Source: an uncultured Ignavibacteria bacterium (GTDB taxonomy: Bacteria; Zixibacteria; MSB-5A5; WJJR01; JAJRUJ01). Taken from it: 64,000 bases of DNA. The position numbers were made by a program, and so were the translations under genes. Numbering within the stretch: position 1 is the first letter of the stretch; each line of letters opens with the position of its first letter. Below the pieces are notes generated by a model, which saw only the letters and a program-made list of their open reading frames with translations, had not been told where the DNA came from and ran no database searches. Shown one piece after another: positions 2,609 to 63,495 of the stretch. The DNA is taken from the NCBI GenBank assembly GCA_964461835.1, contig CAYWVO010000014.1, positions 6,977 through 70,976 of the forward strand, given 5' to 3'.

Positions 2609-3007
2609 TTATGAGGGAATGAGTTTGGCCTTCTCCCATTCCTCCCCCAGCACTACTTCCGCCTCTTTCGCCGCCTGGTCCACGTACTCATGCGGCACCC
2701 AGAGGAATACGCCCACGCTGTCGGGACGGAGCGGAACCAGGCCCATATTCATGACCACGCCGAAATAGCCGGCATGCGATTGAATCACTGCCGGGATTTC
2801 TTTCGCCCGCAACGCCTGCACCGCGAGGTCCGCAAAATGCATCGAGTGGAACCGGGCAATTTTGGCCCACTCGCGCTCGATGTCAACATCGTTGGGAATA
2901 CCCTGGTGCTCCTGCTCCGGCAGCACGTCTACCAACTGTTCGCCGCAATCCGGACAGACCGCGACCTGTGGCTCGTATTCATACCGACAACTGGGGCAAA
3001 ACGGCAT
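2609..3007 (-). CDS. Hypothetical protein: N-terminal zinc ribbon (CPSC...CPDC) plus a DUF2007-like domain.
   Basis: 132-aa ORF with two CxxC pairs at the N-terminus. The remainder resembles the small putative-signal-transducing DUF2007 fold; the family call is tentative. Confidence 0.45.
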   Translation of the reverse strand: MPFCPSCRYEYEPQVAVCPDCGEQLVDVLPEQEHQGIPNDVDIEREWAKIARFHSMHFADLAVQALRAKEIPAVIQSHAGYFGVVMNMGLVPLRPDSVGVFLWVPHEYVDQAAKEAEVVLGEEWEKAKLIPS

Positions 3008-3381: not shown

Positions 3382-3693
3382 TTAGTCTTTAAAAAGATCA
3401 TCCCATTTTTTCTTGATATTGCCCTTGCCTCTGCGGCCTCTGCGGGCCTCCGGCGGGATTGGCGTCAGCGCCAGTCGCCAGTAACTGCAAAAATTCACGG
3501 CCTCGTTTTCACCGGAGTAGTCCGCTTCATGCTCGTCGCAGTCGTTGTAGCTGCCGGGACTGAAATGGCGGCATTGCCGGCAACACCGCAACGGCGCCAG
3601 GCATTTGGGACAATCCGTCTGACGGGTGATCTTCTCATCCGCCAGGAAGCGATGCCCGCAAGACCAACAATACATGTTCTTCCCGTACGCCAT
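3382..3693 (-). CDS. Cys-rich zinc-ribbon hypothetical protein.
   Basis: 103 aa with 10 Cys, including CWSCG...CPKC and CCRQC. Basic C-terminal tail. No recognisable family. Confidence 0.5.
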   Translation of the reverse strand: MAYGKNMYCWSCGHRFLADEKITRQTDCPKCLAPLRCCRQCRHFSPGSYNDCDEHEADYSGENEAVNFCSYWRLALTPIPPEARRGRRGKGNIKKKWDDLFKD

Positions 3694-3943
3694 ATCATCA
3701 ACTCCGTTACATGTAACATGGGAAAGGCAGTATCCGTTGGCAACTGTATTCTCAGAAAATGACTGAACTCAACTACACCCCCAGATCTCGGCGAATTTGT
3801 AATCGTTGAATCTCGCGCACGTACTGCTTATATTTATGTTTTGGGTGGAACCAGTCGCCGATCGTTGTGTCGATCTGACGGATGTCAATTCTTGTCGCGA
3901 CGTCGGTAGCACGTGCTGTGTTCATCCAGGCGGGAGATTGCCT

Positions 3944-5134
3944 GTGCGAAGAATAATCCTGGATCGCGCTGACCGCTTACAACGAATACCGGAAGACTTC
4001 GGTAGTATGGATCGGCTGGCGGCGCGGGTGGATGCTAAAGCGACACCAATTATCGATCTTTCGATCATCGATTGTACGGTACCTTCGGCAGTTACCTTCC
4101 CGGACCTGCCGGCCCAGGAGGTACTCACCCCACCGGACCGCAGTGATTACCAGGGATTTGCGCAAGTAATTGCCGGCCTCTACCACGAGCGGTTGGGTAT
4201 CACCCTTGATCCGGATCGTGAAGTACTACCACTGGCCGGCTCCGCGGTCGGATTGTTTCTGTTAGGCCTCGCCTATGTCGATCCGGGAGACATGGTGTTG
4301 CTGCCGGATCCCTGCCCACCGATTTACCGCAGTGCCGCCGCCTTGTGCGGCGCCGGCATCCAGACACACCTCCTGCACGACCGCCATCACTATTTGCCCG
4401 ATACGCGAGCCATCGAAGACACACTCGTGGGTAAGACCAAATTGTGGATTCTCGGATATCCGCAGAATCCCTCGACCGCGCTCGCCGATCGGGACGCCGT
4501 TACTGAAATTGTCAATCTCGGACGTAAGCACAATATCCTGATCGCCTTTGATAACTCCTTTTCATTCTTGGTCGATCCGCACACCGGTGATCACGGACTG
4601 TTGGGACATCCACGGGCGCGGTCCACCGGCGTGGAAATCCTCTCACTCGACGACACCTTTGGCCTGGGCGCCCTTCATCTGGCGGCCGTAGTCGGCAACC
4701 GTGAGGCAATTGCCGGGATTACGAATCTGGCCGGGGGCGCCGGGTTGCTGCCCGGCCGGGCCGCGCTGAGACTGGGCACGGAAATGGTTCGACGTTCTCA
4801 GGAAATCCTGGCTGCGCGGCGGACGTCATTCACCGAAGCACGGGCCATTCTCCAGCGGGCATTTGACCGCGTGGGCTGGCAGGCACGAGGCGTTGATGGT
4901 GTACCATACTGCTGGGTGACGATCCCTCGCCGGTTTTCGTCACTGGGATTCGCGCGACGCCTTCTGCGGCGAACCGGTATCAAGATTGCCCCCGGCACCA
5001 TTTTCGGGGAGCGCGGTGAAGGATATGTGCGGATTTCAATCCTGCAAGATACGAAGGCCATGCACTCAGTCGCCGACAAACTGGAATCCTTCGGTCGGAT
5101 GCGGACGCGCCGCGGGTCATCAGCCGATCAGTAA
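3944..5134 (+). CDS. Class I/II (fold type I) aminotransferase-fold protein lacking the PLP-binding lysine (Asp in its place); probably non-catalytic or divergent.
   Basis: Aminotransferase hallmarks are present: the FDNSF region (Asp that contacts the pyridine N) and C-terminal GEGYVRIS with the conserved Arg. The SxSK motif reads SLDDTF. There is no Lys anywhere in the ~60 residues around the expected Schiff-base position. Start proposed at GTG 3944, preceded by GGGAGA at 3931-3936; the ORF is open from 3806. Confidence 0.7.
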   Translation: MRRIILDRADRLQRIPEDFGSMDRLAARVDAKATPIIDLSIIDCTVPSAVTFPDLPAQEVLTPPDRSDYQGFAQVIAGLYHERLGITLDPDREVLPLAGSAVGLFLLGLAYVDPGDMVLLPDPCPPIYRSAAALCGAGIQTHLLHDRHHYLPDTRAIEDTLVGKTKLWILGYPQNPSTALADRDAVTEIVNLGRKHNILIAFDNSFSFLVDPHTGDHGLLGHPRARSTGVEILSLDDTFGLGALHLAAVVGNREAIAGITNLAGGAGLLPGRAALRLGTEMVRRSQEILAARRTSFTEARAILQRAFDRVGWQARGVDGVPYCWVTIPRRFSSLGFARRLLRRTGIKIAPGTIFGERGEGYVRISILQDTKAMHSVADKLESFGRMRTRRGSSADQ

Positions 5135-5215
5135 TCCCTCGGAGCAGGAGCTTCCCTTGCCTTCGACCGGTATGTACCGTACCTTCTCACCAGCAACGTT
5201 CGCAGAGGTTGAGTA

Positions 5216-5584
5216 ATGGGTGTCATTCGACTGCACAACATGATGTTTTACAGCTACCATGGCGCTTCTAAGGCCGAACAGGAGACCGGGCGTCGCTACG
5301 AAGTGGATGCGGAGTTGTATCTCAATCTCACCCCCGCCGCGCATACGGACCGGCTGCAAGACACTGTTAATTACCGGCGGGTGTATGATGTTGTCGCGTC
5401 GATCATTCAGGAACAGAAATTTAATCTTTTGGAGACCATTGCCACCAAGATTATGACTGAGATTCTGGATAGCTTTCCGTTAAAACGGGTGGTCGTTCGG
5501 GTGCGGAAAAAAATCCCCCCAATTCCGGGCAATCTCGATCATATTGAGATCGAAATGGATTCCGCGCAGGACAATGAGCGATAA
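5216..5584 (+). CDS. folB: Dihydroneopterin aldolase.
   Basis: 122 aa. Motifs GxxxYHGASKAEQExGRRYEVD and DTVNYRRV are typical of FolB. RBS AGAGG upstream. Confidence 0.85.
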   Translation: MGVIRLHNMMFYSYHGASKAEQETGRRYEVDAELYLNLTPAAHTDRLQDTVNYRRVYDVVASIIQEQKFNLLETIATKIMTEILDSFPLKRVVVRVRKKIPPIPGNLDHIEIEMDSAQDNER

Positions 5585-6131
5585 CAAATCTGCCACAAAC
5601 CAGCTTAAAGAGCCGACGGTGGTCTACCTAGGACTGGGATCGAATATCGGTGACCGGCACCAAGCGTTTCGCCGGGCGCTGGAGGGCATTGCCGCACTGC
5701 CCGAGACCAAGATTCGGCGGCTATCCCCGCGGTATTACACTGATCCGGTAGCGGTTGGCGGCGGGGAATTCCTCAACGGGGTGGTGGAGATTGCCACCAC
5801 GTTGACCCCGGAGGATCTTTGGCGATCAGTTGAACAGATCGAACGCGAGATTGGACGCCAACACAAAGGGCGAAGCCAGCCGCGCGTGATCGATATCGAT
5901 ATCCTGTTGCATGGCACGGAGATTGTGGAAGAGAACCATCTGCGTATTCCGCATGCGCGAATGACCGAGCGGGCGTTTGTCTTACAGCCGTTGGCCGACC
6001 TCGCTCCCGATTTCATCGTTCCCGGAACCAATCAAACCATCAAGGCTCTGCGCGATTCCCTGGAGGGCCCTCATGGCGTCCGCCCGGCACCGGTTGCCCG
6101 TGGCGCCGCCGACCTTTCAAACATGGTATGA
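5574..6131 (+). CDS. folK: 2-amino-4-hydroxy-6-hydroxymethyldihydropteridine pyrophosphokinase (HPPK).
   Basis: VYLGLGSNIGDR...PRYYTDP...RVIDIDILL. Start at ATG 5574, overlapping the folB end; the ORF opens at 5544. Confidence 0.85.
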   Translation: MSDNKSATNQLKEPTVVYLGLGSNIGDRHQAFRRALEGIAALPETKIRRLSPRYYTDPVAVGGGEFLNGVVEIATTLTPEDLWRSVEQIEREIGRQHKGRSQPRVIDIDILLHGTEIVEENHLRIPHARMTERAFVLQPLADLAPDFIVPGTNQTIKALRDSLEGPHGVRPAPVARGAADLSNMV

Positions 6132-6775
6132 TACCTGCGATGGATACGGACATTGGACACATTGCTGTGGAAGGACTTCCCGGATCGGGGCACAACCGCC
6201 TGGTCTTGTTGATTGCCGAGCAGTTTGAATTTCATTCCGAACTTGAATCCAACTGGTTTGATATTTTTTCGCCGCAGACCTCGAGTGAGAGCGCGTTCTC
6301 TGAACACCTCCGGCGATTAGTCTGGCGCTTCGAACACCAGCGTTCTCTGATTAAAACCGATATGTTCCGGCAACGGATTGTTACGGACTATATATTCGAC
6401 ACGCATCGCTTGTGGGGGCAAGCAGTACTGGAAGATTCTGACCGGGTGCTCTACCAGCATATCGCCGAAATCATCTCCCCGCCTGCTGTGACACCCGATC
6501 TGGTGGTCTATTTGCAATGCGAAACCGCAGCCTTAGCGCGGGTTTTGCACCGGGAGAAGAAGAGCGTGGACAATCGGTCGTTAACGGAACTCGTGGACGG
6601 GTACAACCGCTTCTTTTTTGAATATGAGCAATCACCCGCCTTGATTGTCCGGGTCGATCCCAATTCACTGTGGGAATCTCCCGCCCAAGTCGATGAGCTG
6701 CTTCAGCGCATCGCCGATCACAAGGGCGGCAAACAGTACATAATGTCACGGGATACCCAACTCCTTGACGATTAA
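6128..6775 (+). CDS. Deoxynucleoside kinase (dNK/dCK/dGK) family-like protein with a degenerate Walker A.
   Basis: Fold-level match to the dNK family: IAVEGxxGSG, the ERS-like motif RQRIVTDYIFD, and a LVVYLQCETAALARVL lid. The P-loop reads GLPGSGHNR instead of GxxGxGK[ST]. ATGA overlap with the folK stop at 6128-6131. Confidence 0.6.
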   Translation: MIPAMDTDIGHIAVEGLPGSGHNRLVLLIAEQFEFHSELESNWFDIFSPQTSSESAFSEHLRRLVWRFEHQRSLIKTDMFRQRIVTDYIFDTHRLWGQAVLEDSDRVLYQHIAEIISPPAVTPDLVVYLQCETAALARVLHREKKSVDNRSLTELVDGYNRFFFEYEQSPALIVRVDPNSLWESPAQVDELLQRIADHKGGKQYIMSRDTQLLDD

Positions 6776-6825: not shown

Positions 6826-7650
6826 ATGAGTACGGTTCCCAAACCAGCGACGGTAAAAACAGTCACGGCGCCCGATCTGGTCCATTTCAAACGGCGGGGT
6901 CAAGTGATTACGATGCTGACTGCCTATGATTATTTCACTGCCCGCATGCTCGATGAGATCGGAATCGAGGGTATTTTAGTTGGTGATTCGGCAAACATGG
7001 TCTTTTACGGGGAACAATCGACGCTGTCCATCACCCTCGATCAAATGATATACCACACCCAGGCGGTCTCCCGCGCGGCAAAGCGGGCGCTGGTCATTGG
7101 GGATATGCCGTTCATGAGTTACCAGGCCTCCGTGGAGGACGCAGTCCGCAATGCGGGGCGCATGATCAAGGAAGGCGGTGCGGGGGCAGTGAAGCTCGAA
7201 GGCGGAGAGCATATTACTCCCACCGTTTCTCGTCTCATTGATATCGGTATTCCGGTGATGGGGCACATCGGTTTGGTCCCACAGGCAATCCGTCAGCTCG
7301 GCAAATTTCGCGTGCAGGGAACCGATGAACCGTCCGAGGCATATTTGAAACGGTCGGCTCGCGCGCTGGAAGATGCCGGCTGTTTTTCGATCGTCCTGGA
7401 GATGTTACCCACCGACCTGGCTGGCGAGATCAGTAAGATGTTGACCATTCCGACAATCGGCATCGGCGCCGGGGCCCGTTGCGACGGACAAATACTGGTC
7501 ATCAATGATTTACTGGGGTTGTTTGAGGATTTCAAGCCGAAGTTTGTGCGTCGATACGCCCATCTGGCCCGCGAGGCGCGGGCAGCCTGCAAGCGGTGGA
7601 TACAGGACGTGAAAGAGCGCCAATACCCCTCCCCGGACGAAAGCTACTAG
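6826..7650 (+). CDS. panB: 3-methyl-2-oxobutanoate hydroxymethyltransferase.
   Basis: TMLTAYDY...LVGDS...GDMPFMSY...VKLEGG motifs. ATG 6826 with GAGGA RBS; the ORF opens at TTG 6781. Confidence 0.9.
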   Translation: MSTVPKPATVKTVTAPDLVHFKRRGQVITMLTAYDYFTARMLDEIGIEGILVGDSANMVFYGEQSTLSITLDQMIYHTQAVSRAAKRALVIGDMPFMSYQASVEDAVRNAGRMIKEGGAGAVKLEGGEHITPTVSRLIDIGIPVMGHIGLVPQAIRQLGKFRVQGTDEPSEAYLKRSARALEDAGCFSIVLEMLPTDLAGEISKMLTIPTIGIGAGARCDGQILVINDLLGLFEDFKPKFVRRYAHLAREARAACKRWIQDVKERQYPSPDESY

Positions 7651-7746: not shown

Positions 7747-8253
7747 ATGACCACGCAAGACATCACCACCCTCCGCCAGTGTGTCGAACTGGCGGTCGAA
7801 ACAGAACAACTCGGTGCGCAGCGGTACGACCAAATGGCGGAAAAGCTCTCCGATAAGCCGGATACCGCGGCTATTCTGAAGCAACTGGCAGCAGATGAAC
7901 GCGATCACGAACGGCAGTTCCGTGGCCTGTTGACCTCGATGCCGGAGGTCGACAAACCACTCGGAACTGACCGGAATAGTGAGTATTTGCGTTCACTGGC
8001 CGGCAGGGAGTTTTTTGACCGCGAGGTTGCCCCGCTATCCCAACCCGCTGAGATCACCTCGCCGGGCGACGCGCTGAGCAAGGCCCTGGCCCTGGAAAAA
8101 GCAACGGTTTTGTTTTATGATGCGATGAAAGACGTCCTCGGGCAAAACCGTGAACTGGAGACGATTATTGCGGCGGAAAAGCAGCATGTGACAACACTCA
8201 TGAAAGTGATCATGTCCGACGCGGAATTTCGTGGACTCTCCGACACCTGGTAA
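7747..8253 (+). CDS. Ferritin-like/rubrerythrin-superfamily domain protein.
   Basis: 168 aa with a paired helical E/Q...E..H-type pattern (AADERDHERQF; AAEKQHV) typical of small ferritin-like proteins. Confidence 0.5.
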   Translation: MTTQDITTLRQCVELAVETEQLGAQRYDQMAEKLSDKPDTAAILKQLAADERDHERQFRGLLTSMPEVDKPLGTDRNSEYLRSLAGREFFDREVAPLSQPAEITSPGDALSKALALEKATVLFYDAMKDVLGQNRELETIIAAEKQHVTTLMKVIMSDAEFRGLSDTW

Positions 8254-8292: not shown

Positions 8293-8622
8293 ATGAGCGA
8301 CCTGGCGAAAATGGAATGTGTTCCCTGCAAAGGTGGCGTGCCGCCACTTAAAGGAGATGACCTTAAGCAGATTCACGAACGCCTGGGACAAAACTGGGCG
8401 GTCGAGCAGGAACACCACCTGGAAAAAGAATTCACCTTCGATGATTTCCAGCAGGCGCTTGATTTCACCAATAAGGTCGGGCAGCTGGCCGAGCAGCAGG
8501 GACATCATCCCGATATCTATCTCACCTGGGGCAAAGTGGACATCAAAATTTGGACCCACAAAATCGATGGTTTGACTGAGAGCGATTTTGTCCTGGCGGC
8601 CAAAATCGACGAACTGGAGTAA
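8293..8622 (+). CDS. phhB: Pterin-4a-carbinolamine dehydratase (PCD/DCoH).
   Basis: 109 aa. Conserved E..HHPD motif (QQGHHPDIYLTWGKV) and overall PCD length. Confidence 0.8.
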   Translation: MSDLAKMECVPCKGGVPPLKGDDLKQIHERLGQNWAVEQEHHLEKEFTFDDFQQALDFTNKVGQLAEQQGHHPDIYLTWGKVDIKIWTHKIDGLTESDFVLAAKIDELE

Positions 8623-8717: not shown

Positions 8718-9152
8718 ATGGCCGTAGTCAAAGATATTCTGGAGAACAAAGGAAACAAGGTTCTCTCCGCGGAAAAGACCGAGACGGTGTTGAATGCTGC
8801 CAAGCGGATGAACGAAAATCGAATCGGCTCATTGGTGATAACCGACGGTGAGAATGTCGTTGGGATCTTCACCGAACGGGATATCCTTACCCGCGTCGTC
8901 GGCGCCCGGCTCGAACCGGAGACCACCCAGGTCGGGGATGTCATGACCACGCCGGTTGCGGTCTGCCGTCGCGACACCACACTCGATGAGGCCCGCAGCG
9001 TCATGACCAAAAAACGCTTGCGGCATCTGCCGGTGGTCGAGGAAGGGCGATTGCTCGGCATTATTACAAGCGGGGATGTCCTGGCGTGGCATCTGGATGA
9101 ACACATGGAAACGGTTCAATACCTTAACGAGTATATCTACAGCCGTTATTGA
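8718..9152 (+). CDS. CBS-domain pair protein.
   Basis: 144 aa; two CBS repeats (GSLVITDGENVVGIFTERDIL; LPVVEEGRLLGIITSGDVL). Confidence 0.8.
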   Translation: MAVVKDILENKGNKVLSAEKTETVLNAAKRMNENRIGSLVITDGENVVGIFTERDILTRVVGARLEPETTQVGDVMTTPVAVCRRDTTLDEARSVMTKKRLRHLPVVEEGRLLGIITSGDVLAWHLDEHMETVQYLNEYIYSRY

Positions 9153-13786: not shown

Positions 13787-15088
13787 TTACGACGCAGGTA
13801 CCGGAGTGAATCCAAGCGGTGCGGGATCAATTGCTGTTGGCGGCAAGACTCGTCCCACCAAAAAATGTGATCCGAACACTAGAATTAAGTCCTCGGGATC
13901 AGCGGCCGCACGAGCCTCACGGTACATGCGCTGCGGGTCTCGACTGGCGGCAAAGCGCAAACTCTGCTGCCGAGCAAATGATCGTACCTCGCCCAGACCC
14001 CAGGCACGACGATTGGGAAACCGCGTAAAATACCAGGAATCCACCAGCGGCGACAAGGTGCGAATCATAGTCGGCCAGCGCTTGTCCTTGGCGATGGCGC
14101 ACACCGCCAACACCCGACGTCCATTCACAACCCGTGACAGCGAATCCGCCAAGCCACGGGCGGCGGCCGCGTTATGCGCGACATCGAAAATAGTCAGCGG
14201 TTTCTCAGGCAACACCTGGAATCGTCCCGGCCACACCGTTACCCGCAAACCGTCCCGAATCGCTTTTTTTGTAAGCGAAACGCCACACGCGGGCAAATAA
14301 GACAGCGCAGCCAGAATGCCCGTCAAATTATCACGGTAAATGTCTCCCGGATAGCGCCAGGATATTCGCGATGGTAAGGTGCCGTTGGCTGATATGTCAT
14401 ACGCACCCGGCGCGAGACGGTCGCGCAAATCAAGGCACTGGGTAGCATCCACGAAAGGAGCAGAGCGTTGACAGGCAATCTTGGCGATGGCCTGGCGGGC
14501 CGATTCGGTCATCGGGCCACATACCACCGGAACACCCGGCTTAATGATGCCGGCCTTTTCGCCGGCGATCCGGACGCGCGTTCGACCGAGAGTCTTGGTA
14601 TGGTCGAGATCAATTGAGGTAATGACCGAAAGGATCGGCGTGACAATATTAGTCGCGTCTAAACGTCCACCCAGACCAACTTCCAAGACCGCAAGATCAC
14701 ATCCGGAGCGGGCAAACCAGTCAAATGCCATGGCGGTGGTAGTTTCGAAAAAAGTAATCCGGCGTTCGCGGATGAACGAACGGTGCTTTTTGATAAATGA
14801 ACTCACAAACCGGCGGGGAATCCGTTGCCCGTCCACGCGAATCCGCTCGCGATAATCCATTAAATGCGGTGAGGTAAATAAACCTGTTTTGTAACCCGCG
14901 GTACTCAATACGGCGGCCAGGCTGGAACACACCGTGCCTTTCCCATTCGTACCCGCCACGTGAATGATTTCAAGCTGATTCTGTGGGTTGCCGAGGCGGT
15001 CGGCAAAGGCCGTAATATTGTGCAATCCCAGTTTAACACCAAAACTCTCCAAGCCGAAGAGTATGTCGATTGCCTCGGAGTATCGCAT
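13787..15088 (-). CDS. folC: Bifunctional folylpolyglutamate synthase/dihydrofolate synthase.
   Basis: HVAGTNGKGT P-loop; Mur-ligase family architecture; 433 aa. Confidence 0.88.
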   Translation of the reverse strand: MRYSEAIDILFGLESFGVKLGLHNITAFADRLGNPQNQLEIIHVAGTNGKGTVCSSLAAVLSTAGYKTGLFTSPHLMDYRERIRVDGQRIPRRFVSSFIKKHRSFIRERRITFFETTTAMAFDWFARSGCDLAVLEVGLGGRLDATNIVTPILSVITSIDLDHTKTLGRTRVRIAGEKAGIIKPGVPVVCGPMTESARQAIAKIACQRSAPFVDATQCLDLRDRLAPGAYDISANGTLPSRISWRYPGDIYRDNLTGILAALSYLPACGVSLTKKAIRDGLRVTVWPGRFQVLPEKPLTIFDVAHNAAAARGLADSLSRVVNGRRVLAVCAIAKDKRWPTMIRTLSPLVDSWYFTRFPNRRAWGLGEVRSFARQQSLRFAASRDPQRMYREARAAADPEDLILVFGSHFLVGRVLPPTAIDPAPLGFTPVPAS

Positions 15089-15121: not shown

Positions 15122-16015
15122 CTATTCGCTGGAGTCCTCTCGTAGTTCTTTCAGCGAGTCTTGGACGCCCGAGGCCGGGCCGCACAGGTACTTCAGCAGT
15201 TGTGCGATTGTTTCGCGAAGGTTTGATCGGGGGATAATGCAGTCCAGAAAACCATGGTTCTGGAAGAACTCTGATGATTGAAAACCTTCCGGCAGCTTCT
15301 GGCCGATTGTCTGCTGAATAACCCGTGGTCCCGCGAAACCCAACTGGGCTTTCGGCTCGGCAATGATGACGTCGCCCAGGCTCGCATACGAGGCCATCAC
15401 GCCGGCCGTGGTTGGATTGGTCAACACGGAAATGAACGGGATTCGCTCCTCCCGCAGTTGGCCGAGTAACGTGCCGGTCTTGGCCATCTGCATCAGGGAG
15501 AAAATCCCCTCCTGCATGCGGGCGCCGCCGGAACAACTGACGATCACCAGTGGAATCCGTCGCTCCAGTGCGCGCTCAATCGACCGGGCGACCTTCTCGC
15601 CGACGACTGATCCCATACTCCCGCCAATGAAGGCAAAATCCATGACGCTGAAGCTGACCGGCCGCCCGTCGATACGGCCTATGCCACAGACGACGGCATC
15701 TCGCATCCCGGATTTCTTCTGTGATTGAGCGATGCGCTCAGGATACGCTATACGATCACTGAATGTCAGGGGATCGGTGCTGCTCAGATCAGCGTCGAAC
15801 TCTTCCAGCCGGGCGTCATCGAGGAGCATTTCGATGTACTGGTGATGGCGAATCCGGAAATGGTATCCGCACGACGGGCAGACCCATAATTCACGCTCCA
15901 GTTCCTTGCCGAAGAGAATCTCCCCACAGTCTTTGCACTTCGTCCAGATCCCATCGGGGATTTCTTTTCTCTCCTGGCGCGAGATGCCCGATTTTGGTTT
16001 ACGGAACCATTCCAT
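15122..16015 (-). CDS. accD: Acetyl-CoA carboxylase carboxyltransferase beta subunit.
   Basis: N-terminal Zn ribbon CKDCGE...CPSCGYH followed by the carboxyltransferase domain; 297 aa. Confidence 0.9.
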   Translation of the reverse strand: MEWFRKPKSGISRQERKEIPDGIWTKCKDCGEILFGKELERELWVCPSCGYHFRIRHHQYIEMLLDDARLEEFDADLSSTDPLTFSDRIAYPERIAQSQKKSGMRDAVVCGIGRIDGRPVSFSVMDFAFIGGSMGSVVGEKVARSIERALERRIPLVIVSCSGGARMQEGIFSLMQMAKTGTLLGQLREERIPFISVLTNPTTAGVMASYASLGDVIIAEPKAQLGFAGPRVIQQTIGQKLPEGFQSSEFFQNHGFLDCIIPRSNLRETIAQLLKYLCGPASGVQDSLKELREDSSE

Positions 16016-17225: not shown

Positions 17226-17677
17226 GCTGAATTTCCCGTTTTCGTCGGTTCCGCCGGTCGCTTCACGACAATTCGCCGTTGGGTTTCATTGAGCCGTTCA
17301 AAAACAATCAACCAGGTCAACGGTAACTGAGCATCCGGGAGATTTTCCACCCATTCAATGACCACGATTGCCTGGTCACGGGCAATATCTTCAAGCCCTA
17401 AATCCGCGAGCTCCTGCTCATGCCGCACCCGGTAGAGATCGACATGACACAGGGTGGATTCGCCCCGATAGATGTTCACGAGTGTAAAGGATGGCGAAAC
17501 AACCGAATCGGGTATGGCGAGTCCTACGGCCAGTCCCTGCACCCACGTCGTTTTGCCTGCGCCTAACGGCCCGGAGAGACCAATCCAGTCGCCCGGACGT
17601 ACCCGGACGGCAAACGTGCGGGCATGGCGCTGCATCTCGTCGGGCGAGGAGAATGTTGCCTGTTCGACTGCGATCAT
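17222..17677 (-). CDS. tsaE: tRNA t6A37 biosynthesis ATPase TsaE (YjeE).
   Basis: GPLGAGKTT Walker A; 151 aa; ATGA overlap with tsaB. Confidence 0.85.
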   Translation of the reverse strand: MIAVEQATFSSPDEMQRHARTFAVRVRPGDWIGLSGPLGAGKTTWVQGLAVGLAIPDSVVSPSFTLVNIYRGESTLCHVDLYRVRHEQELADLGLEDIARDQAIVVIEWVENLPDAQLPLTWLIVFERLNETQRRIVVKRPAEPTKTGNSA

Positions 17678-19236
17678 TTCGGGGTCAGGGTGGCCACCGG
17701 CAGGATCACCTCCGGCAGGCTGATGCCACCATGCTGGAATGTTCCCGCGAATCGCCTCTGATATTCATTGAATTGCGTCGGGTACACAAAGAAGAAATCG
17801 TCCTTGGCGATTAGGTAGGTGGTATTCATTGTAAAGGACGGCAACTTGTAGGCGCCGGGGTCGCGAATTGCCATCGACTCTTTCGGTTCGCCGTTGAGAT
17901 TGTCGCCATATTTGTAGCGCAGGTTGGTCGACGTATCCTTCTTTGCGCGGGCGATGGTGCCACGCTGCCCGAGAATACTGCCATGATCGGACGTGACCAC
18001 CACGACACAATCCTGCCGTGAGAGGAATTGCAGCACTTTGAACCAGGAGGAATTGGTAAACCAGGTTTTCATCAAATCCCGAAAGGCGCCCTGATCCGGC
18101 GCCAGTTCCCGCAGCAATTCGGATTCCGAACGACCGTGCACCAGGTTGTCGATGAAATTGTAAACCACGGAAAGCAACTGGGTGCTGGCGTAGGTGCCGA
18201 TCTGTTTGGCGAGCCGGTCGCCCTCGTCCTGGTCGAGTACTTTCACATATTTTGCCTCTGGTTTTAACCGAATTCCCAGACGAGCTAGCTGATCATCCAA
18301 TAGTTGCCGTTCGAGGCGATTGCGAGAAAACTCGTCCTTCGAGCCAATCTGCCATAGTTCGGGATGCAGCCTTTGCACGTCGGCGGGGAACAGTCCGGAA
18401 AAAATGGCATTGCGCGAAAACGGGGTAGCCGACGGCAGAATTGAGTAATAGTGATCTCGTTTGATGTTAAAAAGTTGCGCGACTTCCGGTTCGATATGCA
18501 GCCATTGATCCAGACTCATGCAGTCAATCACAAACAGGTACAGCTGCTTCCCCGCTTTTAGATGCGGAGCCACCCAGCGCTGCACCACATCGGTGGACAG
18601 GGGCGGCCGATCATCGCCGTCGTTGACCCAATCATAGTAATTGTTTTCCACGAACTTCGCGAACTCCGCCGACCACTGCCGTTGATGCTCGCGACGGATT
18701 TCATCCAGCCCTAGTTCGCGAAATCTATCGATATCCAAATCCCACGAAGAAAGTTTCAGGTGTGCATCGATCCAGTCCGCCCAGCCCATCGGACCGTACA
18801 GGCGGGCTTGCAGCGAGGCCAAATCCTGCGCGTATTGCCGCGAGAGATGTTCCGTGCGAATTTTGCCGGATTCCAAGTGCCGTTTGACAACCGAGAGGAT
18901 TTGTGATGGATTCACCGGTTTGGTGAGATAATCATCAATCTTTTTGCCGATCGCCTGTTCCATCAAATCTTCTTCTTCGGACTTGGTCACCATCACCACC
19001 GGCAAATTCGGTGACAGATGTTTGATTTCCTCCAGCGTGGAAAGCCCGTCCCGACCGGTCATCATTTCGTCCAGCAGGATAAGATCGTAGCGGTTCACGC
19101 CGATAAGTTCGAGTGCCTCATCGCCACTGGTCGCTCCATCAACCTGGTATCCGCGCTCCCGGAGGAAGACCAGATGTGATTCAAGGTGGTCTATCTCGTC
19201 GTCAACCCATAAGATTGACTTTGCTTGAGGCACCAT
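17674..19236 (-). CDS. porX: PorX-like response regulator: CheY receiver plus PglZ (alkaline-phosphatase-like) domain.
   Basis: N-terminal receiver (ILWVDDE...DLILLDEMM...TKP). Remaining ~390 aa match the PglZ-domain architecture and the ~520-aa size of T9SS regulator PorX. 4-bp overlap with tsaE. Confidence 0.75.
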   Translation of the reverse strand: MVPQAKSILWVDDEIDHLESHLVFLRERGYQVDGATSGDEALELIGVNRYDLILLDEMMTGRDGLSTLEEIKHLSPNLPVVMVTKSEEEDLMEQAIGKKIDDYLTKPVNPSQILSVVKRHLESGKIRTEHLSRQYAQDLASLQARLYGPMGWADWIDAHLKLSSWDLDIDRFRELGLDEIRREHQRQWSAEFAKFVENNYYDWVNDGDDRPPLSTDVVQRWVAPHLKAGKQLYLFVIDCMSLDQWLHIEPEVAQLFNIKRDHYYSILPSATPFSRNAIFSGLFPADVQRLHPELWQIGSKDEFSRNRLERQLLDDQLARLGIRLKPEAKYVKVLDQDEGDRLAKQIGTYASTQLLSVVYNFIDNLVHGRSESELLRELAPDQGAFRDLMKTWFTNSSWFKVLQFLSRQDCVVVVTSDHGSILGQRGTIARAKKDTSTNLRYKYGDNLNGEPKESMAIRDPGAYKLPSFTMNTTYLIAKDDFFFVYPTQFNEYQRRFAGTFQHGGISLPEVILPVATLTPK

Positions 19237-19280: not shown

Positions 19281-20570
19281 TTACTGCGACGTCGGCAGTT
19301 CAATAACGAATTCCGTTCGTTCCCCCGGAATACTCTCTGCAATGTAGATACGTCCGTTATGGTATTCTGCAACAATGCGACGTGACAACGTTAATCCGAG
19401 ACCCCAGCCGCGCTTCTTGGACGTCTGACCCGGACTGAACACTTTCTTAGAGATATTGGCGGGTATCCCGCGTCCGTTATCCACCACGCGGATAATTGCC
19501 AGGCCATTTTCTTCGTCATGTTCAAGGCTGACATCGATTTGTCCCGTGCGCGAGTCGACCGCTTCCAGAGAGTTTTTAATGAGGTTTTCCAAGACCCAAC
19601 TGATCAATTCGGCATTGGCCACCGCCGTCACCGGGGTATCCGCCCGAACAGTTAATTTTGCGCCCTTACCCCGGAACGGCAGTCGCGCCCTAAAATATTC
19701 AGCAGTAGAGAGAATGATCTCACGGAGGTCCACTGCTTCGCGATGCGGTTCCGACCCAATCAAGCCAAACCGGTTGGCCACTTGTTCTAACCGCTTGGTA
19801 TCAGTAAACATACGATTTAGAATCTGGTCGATTGAGGCACCGTTATTCGCCTCCATCGAAATTTTTCCACTGCGGTTGCGTTCACGCATAATTTCCAGCC
19901 ACCCCAGCAGCGACGACAAAGGCGTTCCTAATTGATGGGCGGTTTCCTTGGCCATTCCGACCCAGATATATCGCTGTTCGGCTTGCTTAAGATTGCGAAA
20001 ACCGAAATACGCGATCGCCAGGAAGAGGACAACCAGGCCAACCTCCACAAACGGTAACAGTTGCAGGTTGCGAATCAGGCGGTAATTCCCGTAATGGATA
20101 TAGTGCAGTACCTCACCCGCGTAGGTAATTGGAACCGGAGGGTAATGGTCATCCATCGATCTGACAATCCGCCGGACTTTCTCGACCGTTTCCGGATCCC
20201 GCTGGATGTCGGAATCCGGCACTCCTTCCAGTTCACGCCAGTGGAGCGGATTGTTCTGCGGATCGGTCACCACCAGGGGAAACGACCGCTTCTGGATGAT
20301 CTCCTCGAACAGAAAGCCCGTGATGGCTTCCGATTGCGATTCCACCGCCCGCCGCCACTGGTCGGCGTAGTTCATGGCCATCCGCTGTTCGGCGCGCTTA
20401 AGCTGGGTAACGACTGTCTGGGTATACCACGCCAGCACGGCCGCAATAACCGCGACACCAAAGATCAAGAATCCCTTGAAAATCAGCGGTAGGCCGGTGT
20501 ACCCCGTGGGATCGTGGAAAATCATCCAACCGCGATGGCGATGGCTCTTTTGTGACATATCTCTTTGCAC
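19281..20570 (-). CDS. porY: Sensor histidine kinase, PorY-like.
   Basis: Two N-terminal TM helices; H-box ETAHQLGTPLSSLLGWLEIM; G boxes DNGRGIP and GWGLGL. It sits immediately upstream of porX. Confidence 0.75.
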   Translation of the reverse strand: MQRDMSQKSHRHRGWMIFHDPTGYTGLPLIFKGFLIFGVAVIAAVLAWYTQTVVTQLKRAEQRMAMNYADQWRRAVESQSEAITGFLFEEIIQKRSFPLVVTDPQNNPLHWRELEGVPDSDIQRDPETVEKVRRIVRSMDDHYPPVPITYAGEVLHYIHYGNYRLIRNLQLLPFVEVGLVVLFLAIAYFGFRNLKQAEQRYIWVGMAKETAHQLGTPLSSLLGWLEIMRERNRSGKISMEANNGASIDQILNRMFTDTKRLEQVANRFGLIGSEPHREAVDLREIILSTAEYFRARLPFRGKGAKLTVRADTPVTAVANAELISWVLENLIKNSLEAVDSRTGQIDVSLEHDEENGLAIIRVVDNGRGIPANISKKVFSPGQTSKKRGWGLGLTLSRRIVAEYHNGRIYIAESIPGERTEFVIELPTSQ

Positions 20571-48942: not shown

Positions 48943-50301
<1,359 letters not shown>

Positions 50302-55876: not shown

Positions 55877-56487
55877 TCTCATCCGTCTGTCATGTGCACA
55901 TCGTAATCGTGGGATTTATGCAAGCCCTTGCATGCCCGGTGGGAGTATGTACATTTTTTTGCACCAGCGCATGCCTCGGTTGATCGTATTCTGTAACGGG
56001 AGATATCCTTCTATCTTGTTTATTCAAAAGGGCTTAGTCAATAATTAGGTTGCCGGCAGCTTTGCGGGGGCTATTTCGTACAATTGGCATATATAATGCG
56101 TCAATTTCCCAACGATGGAAAAACCGTGTTCAGAAGTGTCTGTATCATGGAGCAACAAGGACATAATCATTTGACTTTGGGAGATTTTGAGCTAACTTAA
56201 TGCGCGTAGGAGGCTTGGAGTCATAAGGACGACTGTTTCATTATCAATGTCCGGCACTCACCTTATGACCTGTCAATGAAGCCCAACTGTTACTCGTTGA
56301 AACCGCATTTCGGTTGAACTAGAAGGGTGATTTAAAGCCGATCTGAGAACTCTGGCCGCATGTCCTGATGAGCACATTTACCTATCTGATATGAAAAACT
56401 ACTTTAAGAGAACATGGCAAACTGATTGTGAGCGAAGAATTCTTACTTCCTCGCCGCTCCGATTGTGAAACGTATGGAGGTGTAGGT

Positions 56488-62100: not shown

Positions 62101-62166
62101 CGTGTATCGAATACAACCCGGCAGGCAGTGTCCAAGCACTGTCTGCCTTGATTGGGGGTACCATTC

Positions 62167-63495
62167 ATGACCGACTTACGAATGCTCATCGCGAGATTCG
62201 CTGTGGTCGGGGTGTGCATTATCGCATTGGTAGGGGTGGCCAATGCACAGCAAATCACGGGCACGGTGATCAAAACCGATCTTTCGCCCATCAAGGACGC
62301 GCACGTCGAAATCTGGACTTCCTACCCGGATGGGATCAAGCTGGATGCGGTCTTTTCCAGCGTCAACGGTGAATTCACTTTCAGTGGATTAGCTTCCGGA
62401 ACCTATGATATCCGCGTCTGGAAAGGCCAGCCGACCGACATGTATTTCCCGGGATATGCCTTTGATGTTGCCTATCCCAGTTCAGATGTTCTGATCATTC
62501 TCACACCGGCGCCGGAAGTGGATCCGACCATCTTTATCTGTGATTATTCGGATGCAGAGGGATTATCCGAATTTGCGGGATACCCACTTCGTCGTGGTGA
62601 TATCATCACGGTGAAGGATCCCGACGGAGTCACCTGTGGCGCAGAAACCAGGATTCAAAGCGATGAGACCGATGGATACTACCAAATCGATATCTACGGC
62701 GATGATCCAGGAACCGAAGACGATGAGGGGCCAATAAATGGCCAGGAATTGACGTTCTTTATCAACAACAAGCCGGCCGATATTGTCGGCACCACGCCGA
62801 TTTTTAAAGACAAGGATTTCTTCAAATTCCCCATCGAAAGTGCGACCAATAACCTGGAGGGGGTCCAGGTTACCGGACCGGCCGACAGACTCGTTTCACC
62901 CGGTGAAATCGTAGATATAACCTTCACGGTGACCAACAAGGGCAACCACGATGATGCATTTGATCTCATGGTGTTGTCTCTTGATGGTAGCTGGTTCGCG
63001 TCGATTCCGGGGGGCGCAGCGACGAGTGTGTTGGGTGCGGGTGCTTCTGAAGATGTGACCGTGCAAGTAGAAGTTCCGATTACGGCGTTTGACGGCGAAG
63101 AAAACAATATCTTCCTGTTCGGGACGTCGCAGGCCAATAACACTATCATTGGTGTCGGGCAGGGAGAACTCATGGCTCAGAGTACGGGAATCTTCGAAGA
63201 AGGAGGTACCGTTCCTGATCAGTACTTTTTGGCCCAGAACCACCCAAATCCGTTTAACCCATCGACCCAGATTTCTTTTGGTTTGCAAACCGGCGGTCAC
63301 ACCACGGTGGTCGTGTACAATCTGCTCGGTCAGCAGGTCCGTAGTCTTGTCGATGAGTATCTGGTTGCGGGTGCACACGTCGTGACCTGGGATGGTACCA
63401 ATATGGATGGCGATATTGTTCCGAGCGGTATTTATTTCTATCGTATCATCTCCGGCAATTTCAGCAAGACCCGCAAGATGGTGCTGATGAAGTAA
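62167..63495 (+). CDS. T9SS-secreted protein: CarboxypepD_reg-like plus a DPDGVTCG module plus a CARDB-like domain plus a C-terminal T9SS sorting domain.
   Basis: Signal peptide. ITGTV...GEFTFSGLASGTYDIRVW (carboxypeptidase regulatory-like). VQVTGPADRLVSPGEIVDITFTVTNKG (CARDB-like). C-terminus HPNPFNPSTQISF...GIYFYRI...KMVLMK. Confidence 0.85.
   Translation: MTDLRMLIARFAVVGVCIIALVGVANAQQITGTVIKTDLSPIKDAHVEIWTSYPDGIKLDAVFSSVNGEFTFSGLASGTYDIRVWKGQPTDMYFPGYAFDVAYPSSDVLIILTPAPEVDPTIFICDYSDAEGLSEFAGYPLRRGDIITVKDPDGVTCGAETRIQSDETDGYYQIDIYGDDPGTEDDEGPINGQELTFFINNKPADIVGTTPIFKDKDFFKFPIESATNNLEGVQVTGPADRLVSPGEIVDITFTVTNKGNHDDAFDLMVLSLDGSWFASIPGGAATSVLGAGASEDVTVQVEVPITAFDGEENNIFLFGTSQANNTIIGVGQGELMAQSTGIFEEGGTVPDQYFLAQNHPNPFNPSTQISFGLQTGGHTTVVVYNLLGQQVRSLVDEYLVAGAHVVTWDGTNMDGDIVPSGIYFYRIISGNFSKTRKMVLMK

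What the first reader, a model, noticed from the sequence alone, without database searches (positions are those of the whole stretch)
3944..5134. Aminotransferase-fold protein with the Schiff-base lysine replaced by aspartate, directly upstream of folB-folK.
The protein keeps fold type I aminotransferase landmarks: the FDNSF Asp that contacts the pyridine nitrogen, and the C-terminal substrate-binding Arg in GEGYVRIS. The SxSK position reads SLDDTF, and there is no lysine anywhere in the surrounding ~60 residues. Without the lysine it cannot form the internal aldimine. It may be a pseudo-enzyme or regulatory subunit, or it may use a different chemistry. Its position immediately 5' of the pterin genes folB/folK, on the same strand with an 81-bp gap, suggests a pterin/folate-related role rather than amino-acid metabolism.
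Basis: seen in the sequence. Interest (0 to 1): 0.6.

Follow-up and report, generated by a model that had tools for sequence, protein, structure and literature searches.

The report
Dead DapL aminotransferase heading folate operon
This gene encodes a full-length, well-conserved copy of the lysine-pathway enzyme LL-diaminopimelate aminotransferase that has lost its catalytic lysine and most of its cofactor site and become strongly basic; it belongs to a large undescribed family, named mainly from Zixibacteria, that pipelines still label as an active enzyme.

Summary
ORF 3944-5134 (+) encodes a 396-aa fold-type-I aminotransferase homologue. The Schiff-base lysine position reads Asp237 (SLDD), and there is no Lys between residues 196 and 346.

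It is not an error or a pseudogene. Hundreds of related protein clusters lack the lysine, all 15 usable loci have folB next downstream (after dNK in one), and dN/dS is about 0.1-0.2.

The protein is the positional orthologue of genuine DapL. Lys-bearing relatives that pass the NCBIfam DapL cutoff sit in the same place upstream of folB-folK in other phyla.

The window's clade has lost 19 positions that are conserved in canonical DapL, including the ring stacker, the phosphate binders and the DapL substrate loop. It keeps Asp203 and Arg363.

It gained a conserved basic N-terminal motif, an RRLLRR helix and a basic C-tail. Median pI is 9.4, against 5.9 for canonical DapL. A transitional clade (Lys to Met/Ile/Leu, PLP pocket otherwise intact) already has these gains.

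Best reading: a PLP-free pseudoenzyme kept for a non-catalytic binding role. That role was not identified.

The folate inference from adjacency is weak, because the linkage predates the lysine loss.

The parts
3944..5134 (+). Lys-less DapL-derived pseudo-aminotransferase, 396 aa, GTG start
   Evidence: ORF. It is identical to P0001. Pfam Aminotran_1_2 8e-23. TIGR03540 DapL scores 225 bits against a 593-bit cutoff. The AF2 model has pLDDT 86 and pTM 0.86, and Foldseek gives TM about 0.8 to BacF, 2dou and 2x5d.
3944..3994 (+). N-terminal family motif MRRIILDRADRLQRIP (residues 1-17), basic, gained relative to canonical DapL
   Evidence: R2, I4, D7, R8, D10, Q13 and R14 are at least 88% conserved in 42 Lys-less sequences and not conserved in 90 canonical ones. 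The same motif, with Lys replacing Arg, occurs in all divergent subfamilies. Residues 1-15 have pLDDT below 50 in the model.
4550..4552 (+). Asp203 (FDNSF), the residue that pairs with the pyridine N in active enzymes; retained
   Evidence: D in 98% of Lys-less and 100% of canonical sequences.
4643..4654 (+). SLDD in place of the S-x-S-K motif; codon 4652-4654 (GAC, Asp237) is the Schiff-base lysine position
   Evidence: HMMER alignment to 2dou. Column statistics: K in 100% of 90 canonical sequences, and T/H/A/I/D/R... in the Lys-less clade. DNA read.
4955..4972 (+). RRLLRR helix (residues 338-343), a gained basic stripe in the C-terminal small domain
   Evidence: R338, R339 and R343 are 100% and R342 is 93% conserved in the Lys-less clade. 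Canonical sequences have mixed or acidic residues there. The low-GC subfamily reads RMLLRK. Residues 333-344 are helical in the model.
5030..5032 (+). Arg363 (GEGYVRIS), the alpha-carboxylate-binding Arg of aminotransferases; retained
   Evidence: R in 100% of both groups and in 73 of 73 sequences of the P0208 subfamily.
5096..5131 (+). Basic C-terminal tail (FGRMRTRRGSSADQ); it is longer and more basic in relatives (LYQRRLPRxR, HIWQRRYRPK)
   Evidence: Alignments. R390 and R393 are 88% conserved in the Lys-less clade, and these columns are gaps in most canonical sequences.
3806..3834 (+). Promoter-like site (TTGAAT-17-TATATT) upstream of the gene; weak evidence
   Evidence: Consensus scan: 6 sites found against 3.6 expected, so this is only suggestive.
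5216..5584 (+). folB (dihydroneopterin aldolase), 81 bp downstream
   Evidence: Pfam FolB 3e-32. TIGR00525 scores 103 bits against a 72-bit cutoff.
5574..6131 (+). folK (HPPK). The start is uncertain: ATG 5574 overlaps the end of folB, and the ORF opens at TTG 5544
   Evidence: Pfam HPPK 3e-35. TIGR01498 scores 129 bits against a 54-bit cutoff. ORF.
6128..6775 (+). dNK-like P-loop kinase; its start overlaps the folK stop
   Evidence: Pfam dNK 4e-9. It holds the same position in L002, L005-L007, L013, L085, L086, L088 and L089.
6826..7650 (+). panB (ketopantoate hydroxymethyltransferase); the ORF opens at TTG 6781 and ATG 6826 is the likely start
   Evidence: Pfam 9e-111. NF001452 scores 374 bits against a 272-bit cutoff.
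3382..3693 (-). Divergently transcribed Cys-rich zinc-ribbon protein (103 aa). It is a conserved neighbour of the operon; whether it belongs to the system is unproven
   Evidence: tblastn finds it in the same place in L085, L002-L006, L087 and L088 (36-84% identity), but not in L007, L086, L089, L013 or L054. Pfam gives only a weak Zn_ribbon_8 match.

Best explanation
The gene is the positional orthologue of dapL (LL-diaminopimelate aminotransferase, DapL2/TIGR03540 type). In the lineage that includes the Zixibacteria it has become a catalytically dead, PLP-free pseudoenzyme.

Shown here:
1. The aminotransferase fold is intact.
2. The Schiff-base Lys and 18 other positions conserved in canonical DapL are lost in the window's clade. 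These include the ring-stacking Tyr125, the Gly99-Ser100 and Arg245 phosphate binders, Ser236, Tyr206 and the K263/N265/D267/F271/Q275 substrate loop. Transamination and stable PLP binding are therefore not possible.
3. The protein is nevertheless under purifying selection across hundreds of lineages.
4. The family gained a conserved basic N-terminal arm, an RRLLRR helix and a basic C-tail. This shifts pI from about 5.9 to about 9.4. Arg and Lys interchange between subfamilies, so positive charge is what is conserved.
5. A transitional clade already carries these gains while keeping the PLP pocket and lacking only the Lys. The new feature therefore arose no later than the loss of the lysine, and the cofactor site decayed afterwards.
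6. No terminator-like site separates the gene from folB, and the order K-less gene, folB, folK, dNK-like gene, panB is conserved, so it probably heads that transcription unit. Transcripts were not examined.

Inferred:
- The protein acts as a dimeric, non-enzymatic binding protein.
- Most of the gained Arg lie in the N-terminal arm and the C-terminal region, which by general aminotransferase architecture form the small domain. This was not measured on the model.
- That basic surface would bind an anionic partner: a nucleic acid, a phosphorylated ligand or an acidic protein.
- The vestigial carboxylate site (Arg363, Asp203, Asn175) may still hold a small acid.

My probabilities: about 0.9 for 'dead DapL orthologue retained by selection', and about 0.35 for the basic-surface binding or regulatory mechanism.
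For: - Lysine column and PLP-site losses.
- Intact fold.
- Below the DapL cutoff (225 against 593 bits), while the four full-length Lys-bearing relatives tested at the same locus pass it (597-619 bits).
- Monophyly of the Lys-less clade in an NJ tree.
- Same-locus synteny in 15 of 15 Lys-less loci with usable flank.
- Canonical DapL upstream of folB-folK or folK in other phyla.
- Purifying selection: dN/dS is 0.11-0.19 against 0.26-0.38 for FolK, though dS is saturated near 2. Between-genome identity is similar to FolK and dNK. There are 33 invariant columns in 36 sequences.
- Gain of basic residues and the pI shift.
- Neighbouring proteins are not basic, so the shift is not a compositional effect.
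- Transitional clade.
- No terminator-like site in the 81-bp gap.
- Family size and Zixibacteria names.
Against: - No direct evidence for any binding partner.
- No conserved operator or RNA element was found upstream: there are no Rfam hits, and only promoter-like boxes are shared.
- There is no recognisable nucleic-acid-binding domain.
- Retention of Asp203, Asn175 (83%) and Arg363 could be purely structural.
- Extended synteny in these genomes also includes unrelated genes (rsfS, rho). Gene order may therefore reflect shared ancestry rather than functional coupling.
- The window protein is the least basic member (pI 8.7, net charge +3).
Confidence: 0.55

Rival explanations
1. It is a non-catalytic partner subunit. 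It heterodimerises with an active class-I aminotransferase (a real DapL or another paralogue encoded elsewhere) and tunes or completes that enzyme's shared active site, as the Lys-less Ser4 does for Ser5.
For: Fold-type-I active sites are built from both subunits of a dimer (established knowledge). There is a published precedent: Ser4 lacks the lysine yet is required for Ser4/Ser5 activity (PMC11726168). The intact fold is preserved.
Against: No second aminotransferase gene lies next to it in any of the loci, unlike ser4-ser5. There is no second DapL-like gene in the 64-kb window. The residue that reaches into the partner's site (Tyr63) is itself lost. The gained basic termini are not explained.
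Confidence: 0.15
2. It is still an enzyme but with new, PLP-independent chemistry on a phosphorylated pterin or folate/pantothenate intermediate. One candidate is a missing step between dihydroneopterin triphosphate and dihydroneopterin. The gained Arg/Lys would bind phosphates.
For: folB lies next downstream in all 15 Lys-less loci examined, after dNK in one. Many conserved basic residues were gained. The dephosphorylation steps before FolB lack assigned genes in most bacteria (my own knowledge, not tested here).
Against: The linkage to folB-folK predates the change, because genuine DapL sits there in other phyla. The former active-site residues are variable or deleted rather than replaced by a new conserved constellation. 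The gained basic residues lie largely in the termini and a helix assigned to the small domain, not in the pocket. No precedent for such chemistry on this fold turned up.
Confidence: 0.12
3. It binds PLP, PMP or an amino or keto acid non-covalently and serves as a vitamin-B6 or amino-acid sensor or buffer, like the aminotransferase-like sensor domain of MocR/GabR regulators.
For: Asp203, Asn175 and Arg363 are kept. In the transitional clade the whole PLP pocket is conserved with only Lys changed to Met/Ile/Leu, which suggests ligand binding without catalysis there. Aminotransferase-like sensor domains are an established kind (PMC5320631).
Against: In the window's clade the ring stacker, both phosphate-binding elements, Ser236 and Tyr206 are gone. 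In the largest subfamily the motif is deleted and Tyr125 is Asp or Glu. PLP binding is therefore very unlikely for this protein. There is no DNA-binding domain.
Confidence: 0.08
4. It is a sequencing or assembly error, a frameshift, or a decaying pseudogene.
For: None beyond the missing lysine.
Against: The ORF is full length and identical on two independent contigs. The Lys-less state occurs in hundreds of independent assemblies. dN/dS is 0.11-0.19. There are 33 invariant columns.
Confidence: 0.01

Closest known systems
LL-diaminopimelate aminotransferase DapL, DapL2 type (NCBIfam TIGR03540 DapC_direct / NF006756)
   Same: It is the best-scoring family and has the same fold and length. It occupies the same genomic position: Lys-bearing DapL lies directly upstream of folB-folK or folK in Methylomirabilota, Omnitrophota, Auribacterota, Baltobacteraceae and others. 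Asp203, Asn175, Glu231 and Arg363 are shared.
   Different: It scores 225 bits against the 593-bit cutoff. The Schiff-base Lys, the Tyr ring stacker, the phosphate binders and the DapL substrate loop are lost. It is strongly basic, with added N- and C-terminal motifs. It cannot be a DapL enzyme.
Ser4 of the Ser4/Ser5 heteromeric aminotransferase (Serratia sp. ATCC 39006; PMC11726168)
   Same: A fold-type-I aminotransferase homologue without the catalytic lysine that is nonetheless functional.
   Different: Ser4 is truncated at both ends, belongs to the sugar-aminotransferase group, and is encoded in tandem with its active partner. The protein here is full length with extended termini, derives from DapL, and has no adjacent paralogue.
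Aminotransferase-like effector domains of MocR/GabR transcription factors (PMC5320631)
   Same: A class-I aminotransferase fold reused for a non-catalytic, regulatory purpose.
   Different: MocR proteins carry an N-terminal GntR winged-helix domain and bind PLP through the lysine. This protein has neither.
PMP-dependent sugar dehydratases ColD/E1, where His replaces the Schiff-base Lys (from my own knowledge)
   Same: Fold-type-I proteins that work without the lysine.
   Different: They keep the full cofactor site and a conserved catalytic His at that position. Here the position is variable (D, R, H, T, A, I...) or deleted, and the cofactor site is degraded.
Solved structures 2dou (T. thermophilus TTHA0342), 6l1l-6l1o (BacF), 2x5d
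   Same: Closest by sequence (E down to 4e-37) and by fold (TM about 0.8).
   Different: 2dou, the one checked, has the S-x-S-K lysine (SLSK); the others were not inspected at that position.

Membership tests
Fold-type I (class I/II) PLP-dependent aminotransferase superfamily (Pfam PF00155) | Sequence and fold homology over the whole domain | tested here: met
   PF00155 scores E = 8e-23 over residues 71-379. The AF2 model has pLDDT 86, and Foldseek gives TM about 0.8 to many aminotransferases.
Fold-type I (class I/II) PLP-dependent aminotransferase superfamily (Pfam PF00155) | Schiff-base lysine in the S-x-S-K motif | tested here: not met
   The position is Asp237. No lysine lies within residues 196-346. 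No lysine is invariant in the family.
Fold-type I (class I/II) PLP-dependent aminotransferase superfamily (Pfam PF00155) | PLP-binding set: aromatic ring stacker, Gly-Ser/Thr phosphate loop, Ser before Lys, phosphate Arg, Tyr on O3' | tested here: not met
   The window protein has Y125 to P, S236 to D, R245 to H and Y206 to F. The Gly99-Ser100 loop is present in the window protein but not conserved in its clade (N57/G31; A/T/S/V).
Fold-type I (class I/II) PLP-dependent aminotransferase superfamily (Pfam PF00155) | Asp pairing with the pyridine N, and Arg binding the substrate alpha-carboxylate | tested here: met
   D203 is 98% and R363 is 100% conserved.
LL-diaminopimelate aminotransferase DapL (TIGR03540) | Score at or above the curated equivalog cutoff (593.25 bits) | tested here: not met
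   225.6 bits. Four Lys-bearing relatives tested at the same locus score 597-619 bits.
LL-diaminopimelate aminotransferase DapL (TIGR03540) | Conserved substrate loop K263-x-N265-x-D267...F271...Q275, plus Tyr63 and Asn171 | tested here: not met
   All are at least 89% conserved in 90 canonical sequences and replaced by variable residues in the Lys-less clade.
LL-diaminopimelate aminotransferase DapL (TIGR03540) | Orthology by descent and position | tested here: met
   DapL is the best family hit. The protein sits in the same slot upstream of folB-folK(-dNK-panB) as genuine DapL in other phyla. A transitional clade links the two.
LL-diaminopimelate aminotransferase DapL (TIGR03540) | Tetrahydrodipicolinate/glutamate transaminase activity | not testable with these tools
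   This needs an enzyme assay or complementation of an E. coli dapD/dapE mutant.
MocR/GabR aminotransferase-like regulators | N-terminal GntR-type winged-helix DNA-binding domain | tested here: not met
   The Pfam scan returns only PF00155 and a weak PF01053 match. The N-terminal 40 residues are the modified aminotransferase arm.
Heteromeric pseudo-subunit of the Ser4 type | Encoded next to an active paralogue with which it assembles | tested here: not met
   No adjacent aminotransferase in any locus, and none elsewhere in the window. A partner encoded elsewhere in the genome was not testable.
ColD/E1-type PMP enzymes | Conserved His at the lysine position with an intact cofactor site | tested here: not met
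   The position is variable or deleted and the cofactor site is degraded.

The most novel reading that the evidence does not exclude
A core lysine-biosynthesis enzyme (DapL) has been converted in situ, across what appears to be much of a candidate phylum, into a basic protein with no cofactor. It would have a new molecular function: either a nucleic-acid/polyanion-binding regulator of the folate-pantothenate operon, or a PLP-independent catalyst for an unassigned pterin dephosphorylation step. The transitional clade preserves the order of events: new surface first, then lysine loss, then cofactor-site decay.
Probability: 0.2. Interest if true: 0.8.

Novelty: new variant of a known kind. Interest (0 to 1): 0.55.

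Why it matters
1. Annotation. These proteins are auto-named 'LL-diaminopimelate aminotransferase' (JGI) or 'PLP-dependent enzyme' (NCBI). Metabolic reconstructions of Zixibacteria that count them would wrongly infer a DapL lysine and peptidoglycan-precursor route. How these bacteria make diaminopimelate becomes an open, testable question.

2. Evolution. The family offers a rare graded series from an active enzyme, through a form that lacks the lysine but keeps the pocket, to a form whose cofactor site is fully degraded or deleted. All of these occupy one genomic position. This suits study of how bacterial pseudoenzymes arise and whether a second function precedes catalytic death.

3. Function. 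A conserved, strongly selected, basic protein of unknown role appears to head the folB-folK-panB unit of an uncultured phylum. It is a defined target for biochemistry.

Tried and rejected
- Frameshift, sequencing error or pseudogene: rejected. The ORF is identical on two contigs, the Lys-less state is conserved in hundreds of clusters, and dN/dS is 0.11-0.19.
- Relocated lysine: rejected. No lysine is invariant in the core clade, and there is a 151-residue Lys-free stretch.
- Conserved replacement base (His, as in ColD): rejected. The position is variable or deleted.
- Riboswitch or other RNA element: no Rfam hit in the window at gathering thresholds, and none in 3600-5300 at E up to 1. There are no tRNAs.
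- Conserved operator upstream: a k-mer comparison of eight upstream regions found only promoter-like TTGATT-N17-TTAATT boxes. A palindrome GTTACATGTAAC (3705-3716) is shared only with the closest relative.
- Charge complementarity with co-encoded FolB, FolK and dNK: these are mildly acidic (pI 5.5-6.3), but this is unremarkable and ORF-start errors add noise, so it is inconclusive. It does show that the basic shift is specific to this protein.
- Aldolase_II neighbour as a functional clue: it is a generic class II aldolase/adducin member below every NCBIfam cutoff. It is absent upstream in the window and in L085, and absent from the whole window.
- Second DapL or other lysine-pathway genes in the window: none found.
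- AlphaFold-database fold search for taxonomy: the library was unavailable.
- Literature: no paper describing a Lys-less DapL or a DapL-folBK link.
Full report
**1. The observation**

Window 3944-5134 (+) is an intact ORF of 396 aa with a GTG start. An identical protein was called independently on two public contigs (P0001). Homologues begin at the same MRKI... motif, so the longer TTG-3806 reading is unnecessary.

Pfam assigns it to Aminotran_1_2 (E = 8e-23). In a HMMER alignment to the solved aminotransferase 2dou, query 'SLDD' lies on 'SLSK'. The Schiff-base lysine position is therefore Asp237, codon 4652-4654.

Asp203 (FDNSF) and Arg363 (GEGYVRIS) align with residues invariant in canonical relatives. 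No lysine occurs between residues 196 and 346.

folB starts 81 bp downstream, with no terminator-like site in the gap. folB, folK and panB all pass their curated NCBIfam cutoffs. Every factual element of the finding is confirmed.

**2. Not an error, and not alone**

A word-indexed search of 5.8 billion proteins returned 38 clusters at 33-69% identity. The 34 full-length ones examined, plus 8 copies from fetched loci (42 sequences in all), lack the lysine. Hits at 31% identity or below carry the canonical SLSK. At the lysine column those 42 sequences show T, H, A, I, D, R and others, so there is no conserved replacement.

A profile search of 1.84 billion representatives, followed by inspection, revealed many more divergent Lys-less subfamilies at 25-31% identity to the window protein. 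One of them has 478 clusters at E up to 1e-30. In a sample of 73 from that subfamily:
- none has the lysine;
- 58 have the S-x-S-K stretch partly deleted;
- the ring-stacking Tyr is Asp or Glu.

Named members are almost all 'candidate division Zixibacteria' or 'Candidatus Zixiibacteriota'. A few MAGs are labelled Acidobacteriota, Terriglobales or Ignavibacteria. The window also encodes T9SS-sorted proteins, which in my own knowledge is typical of the FCB group.

**3. Selection**

Window versus L085 (69% aa identity) and L002 (54%) gives dN/dS of 0.11-0.19. This is lower than for the adjacent folK (0.26-0.38) and higher than for panB (0.04-0.09). dS is saturated near 2, so these values are rough. 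Across more distant genomes the protein's identity (35-40%) matches that of FolK and the dNK-like kinase. Thirty-three columns are invariant in 36 sequences. It is a functional protein-coding gene.

**4. What it descends from**

The best NCBIfam model is TIGR03540, LL-diaminopimelate aminotransferase (DapL), at 225 bits against a 593-bit cutoff.

A scan of one genome per GTDB species returned Lys-less loci and many Lys-bearing relatives. Eighteen of those Lys-bearing genes lie directly upstream of folB-folK or folK, in Methylomirabilota/Rokubacteria, Omnitrophota, Auribacterota, Baltobacteraceae, Deferrimicrobiaceae and others. Four full-length ones tested (L021, L060, L011, L036) score 597-619 bits and are genuine DapL by NCBI's criterion. 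A fifth, L008, whose match was cut short, scored 576 bits. L011 and L060 even share the downstream dNK-like gene, and L011 also panB.

In an NJ tree the Lys-less sequences form one clade. The window gene is thus the positional orthologue of dapL. The linkage to folB-folK was inherited and predates the loss of the lysine.

**5. Anatomy of the change**

I compared 42 Lys-less sequences with 90 canonical ones column by column.

Positions at 87-100% identity in canonical DapL that are lost:
- Tyr63, Gly68, Gly99-Ser100 and Tyr125;
- Asn171, Tyr206, Ser218, Ser236 and Lys237;
- Gly243, Arg245, and the loop Lys263/Asn265/Asp267/Phe271/Gln275;
- Tyr296 and Arg299.

Retained positions: Asn175 (83%), Asp203 (98%), Glu231, the G-x-x-G-E-G-x-x-R motif and Arg363 (100%).

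Positions gained at 88-100%:
- R2, R8, R14, R24 and R28 in the N-terminal arm;
- R83, R129, R253 and R292;
- R338, R339, R342 and R343 (the RRLLRR helix);
- R390 and R393 in a C-terminal extension;
- also G138, G163, D182 and P321.

Scoring each sequence on 20 gained and 19 lost positions gives a bimodal picture. The core clade has 18-20 gained and 0-3 kept, apart from one N-terminally truncated sequence (P0034) with 14 gained. Canonical sequences have 0-6 gained and 14-19 kept, and 85 of the 90 keep at least 17.

Median pI is 9.44 against 5.88, and median net charge is +7.5 against -6. In the low-GC subfamily many of these Arg are Lys (RMLLRK, KKLIIEKAERLQKLPP). Charge is therefore what is conserved. 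Neighbouring gene products are acidic to neutral, so the shift is specific to this protein.

The AF2 model (pLDDT 86, pTM 0.86) keeps the full aminotransferase fold, with TM about 0.8 to BacF, 2dou and 2x5d. The first 15 and last 6 residues are disordered.

By general aminotransferase architecture, the N-terminal arm and the C-terminal region form the small domain. Twelve of the 17 gained Arg fall there. I could not access model coordinates to measure clustering.

**6. A transitional clade**

L013 and about 22 related clusters (60-100% identical to each other, from Zixibacteria, at the same locus) have Met, Ile or Leu at the lysine position in 17 of 18 sequences. They keep Gly99, Tyr125, Asn171, Asn175, Asp203, Tyr206, Ser218, Ser236, Gly243 and Arg245 almost universally. 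They have lost the DapL substrate loop.

They already have the N-terminal motif (RKKIVIERAERLHQIP), FSRRLFRRTG and a basic tail. L013 has pI 9.8 and scores 430 bits on the DapL model. Other subfamilies keep between 2 and 9 of the 19 canonical positions.

This indicates an order of events: new basic features and loss of catalysis first, then progressive decay of the cofactor pocket. The window's clade lies at the decayed end.

**7. Context**

All 15 Lys-less loci with usable flank have folB next downstream. In L054 a dNK-like gene intervenes.

The common order is: class II aldolase/adducin gene, Lys-less gene, folB, folK, (dNK-like), panB, (glyoxalase-fold), panC, panD, GlmU-N-like. In several loci this continues to rsfS and rho. 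Because unrelated housekeeping genes are included, part of this synteny may simply be inherited.

The window and its closest relative L085 lack the aldolase gene.

A divergently transcribed 90-103-aa Cys-rich zinc-ribbon gene (window 3382-3693, minus strand) is conserved in nine of the loci.

No Rfam element and no deeply conserved operator was found upstream.

**8. Mechanism**

Shown:
- The protein cannot form an internal aldimine and lacks most PLP contacts, so it is not an aminotransferase.
- It is maintained by selection.
- It probably heads the folB-folK-dNK-panB transcription unit, because no terminator-like site separates the genes. Transcripts were not examined.

Inferred:
- It works as a dimeric binding protein through its gained basic arm, helix and tail.
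- The partner would be anionic: a nucleic acid, a phosphorylated metabolite or an acidic protein.
- The retained Arg363/Asp203/Asn175 may still hold a small carboxylate ligand.

I put about 0.9 on the pseudoenzyme statement and about 0.35 on this mechanism.

Rivals:
- A silent partner of an active aminotransferase, as in the Ser4/Ser5 precedent (PMC11726168). No adjacent paralogue exists, and the cross-subunit Tyr63 is lost.
- A new PLP-independent activity on pterin phosphates. This is attractive because of the folB adjacency, but the adjacency is ancestral and the old pocket shows no new conserved constellation.
- A PLP or amino-acid sensor. This is plausible for the transitional clade, not for this protein.

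**9. Comparison with known families, and novelty**

It is homologous to, and descended from, DapL, but it fails the defining tests for both 'PLP-dependent aminotransferase' and 'DapL'. It resembles known non-catalytic uses of the fold (Ser4; MocR/GabR effector domains, PMC5320631). It lacks their defining features, namely an adjacent active partner or a winged-helix domain plus a PLP lysine.

Six full-text searches found no description of a Lys-less DapL or of a dapL-folBK link.

I rate it a new variant of a known kind: a bacterial pseudoenzyme derived from a PLP enzyme.

Practical consequences:
- The family is routinely mislabelled as DapL or as a 'PLP-dependent enzyme'.
- This affects lysine and peptidoglycan pathway inference for Zixibacteria.
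- The graded series at one locus is a good system for studying how pseudoenzymes arise.

Interest: 0.55.

Noticed in passing
window 3382-3693 (-): A 103-aa Cys-rich zinc-ribbon protein is transcribed divergently from the Lys-less gene. It is conserved at the same place in L085, L002-L006, L087 and L088 (36-84% identity). It ends in a conserved acidic-aromatic tail (KKKWDDLFKD, or RDIRDLFNDA in L003). That tail could in principle dock on a basic surface. It has no family assignment beyond a weak Zn_ribbon_8 match.
   Followed up: partly
window 2609-3007 (-): A second small zinc-ribbon protein (132 aa, weak DZR/Zn_Ribbon_1 matches) lies next to the first. It is conserved with L085 (88% identity).
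   Followed up: partly
window 3705-3716: A perfect 12-nt palindrome GTTACATGTAAC lies just upstream of the zinc-ribbon gene's start, in the shared intergenic region. It is shared (with one mismatch) only with the closest relative L085, so its significance is unclear.
   Followed up: partly
L002-L007, L086-L089 (e.g. L002 7291-7974): A class II aldolase/adducin-family gene sits immediately upstream of the Lys-less gene in most relatives. It is absent from the window and from L085. It falls below every NCBIfam equivalog cutoff (FucA, OtnC and MtnB-like scores of 80-140 bits). It is not found next to the folBK-linked canonical dapL loci; its only matches in canonical-dapL loci are non-adjacent ones in four Bacillota loci (L018, L058, L074, L081).
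   Followed up: partly
window 6128-6775 (+): A dNK-like P-loop kinase (Pfam dNK 4e-9) is wedged between folK and panB, and its start overlaps the folK stop. It holds this position in most Lys-less loci and in some canonical-dapL loci (L011, L060). Its substrate is unknown.
   Followed up: partly
window 8293-8622 (+): A pterin-4a-carbinolamine dehydratase gene (Pfam 9.6e-31) lies about 640 bp downstream of panB. It follows a rubrerythrin-like gene (7747-8253) and precedes a CBS-pair protein (8718-9152). L085 has the same trio. It is a second pterin-related gene in the neighbourhood.
   Followed up: partly
window 13787-15088 (-): folC (TIGR01499, 363 bits) lies next to accD (15122-16015), about 9 kb from folB-folK. 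At least three folate genes therefore lie within 12 kb.
   Followed up: partly
window 48943-50301 (-): A TrpB-like PLP enzyme of the TrpB2 type (NF009057, 717 bits).
   Followed up: no
window 56428-62100 and 62152-63495 (+): A giant 1890-aa protein carries HYR-like, cohesin and BACON-like domains. Both it and its neighbour carry a T9SS C-terminal sorting domain. In my own knowledge this is consistent with an FCB-group organism.
   Followed up: no
window 17674-19236 (-): A response regulator receiver domain fused to a PglZ domain, next to a histidine kinase (19281-20570).
   Followed up: no
L008-L011, L021, L023, L035-L037, L042, L044, L055, L060, L062, L063, L066, L069, L084: Lys-bearing dapL lies directly upstream of folB-folK or folK in at least six phylum-level groups. 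This dapL-folBK linkage has no obvious pathway logic, and I found no description of it in the literature searched.
   Followed up: partly
P0096 (Ca. Zixiibacteriota; transitional clade): This one member of the Lys-to-Met clade keeps Lys at the site. It has lost Tyr125 (Asp), Tyr206 (Phe) and Arg245 (His). This suggests either that the pocket decays independently of the lysine, or a reversion.
   Followed up: no
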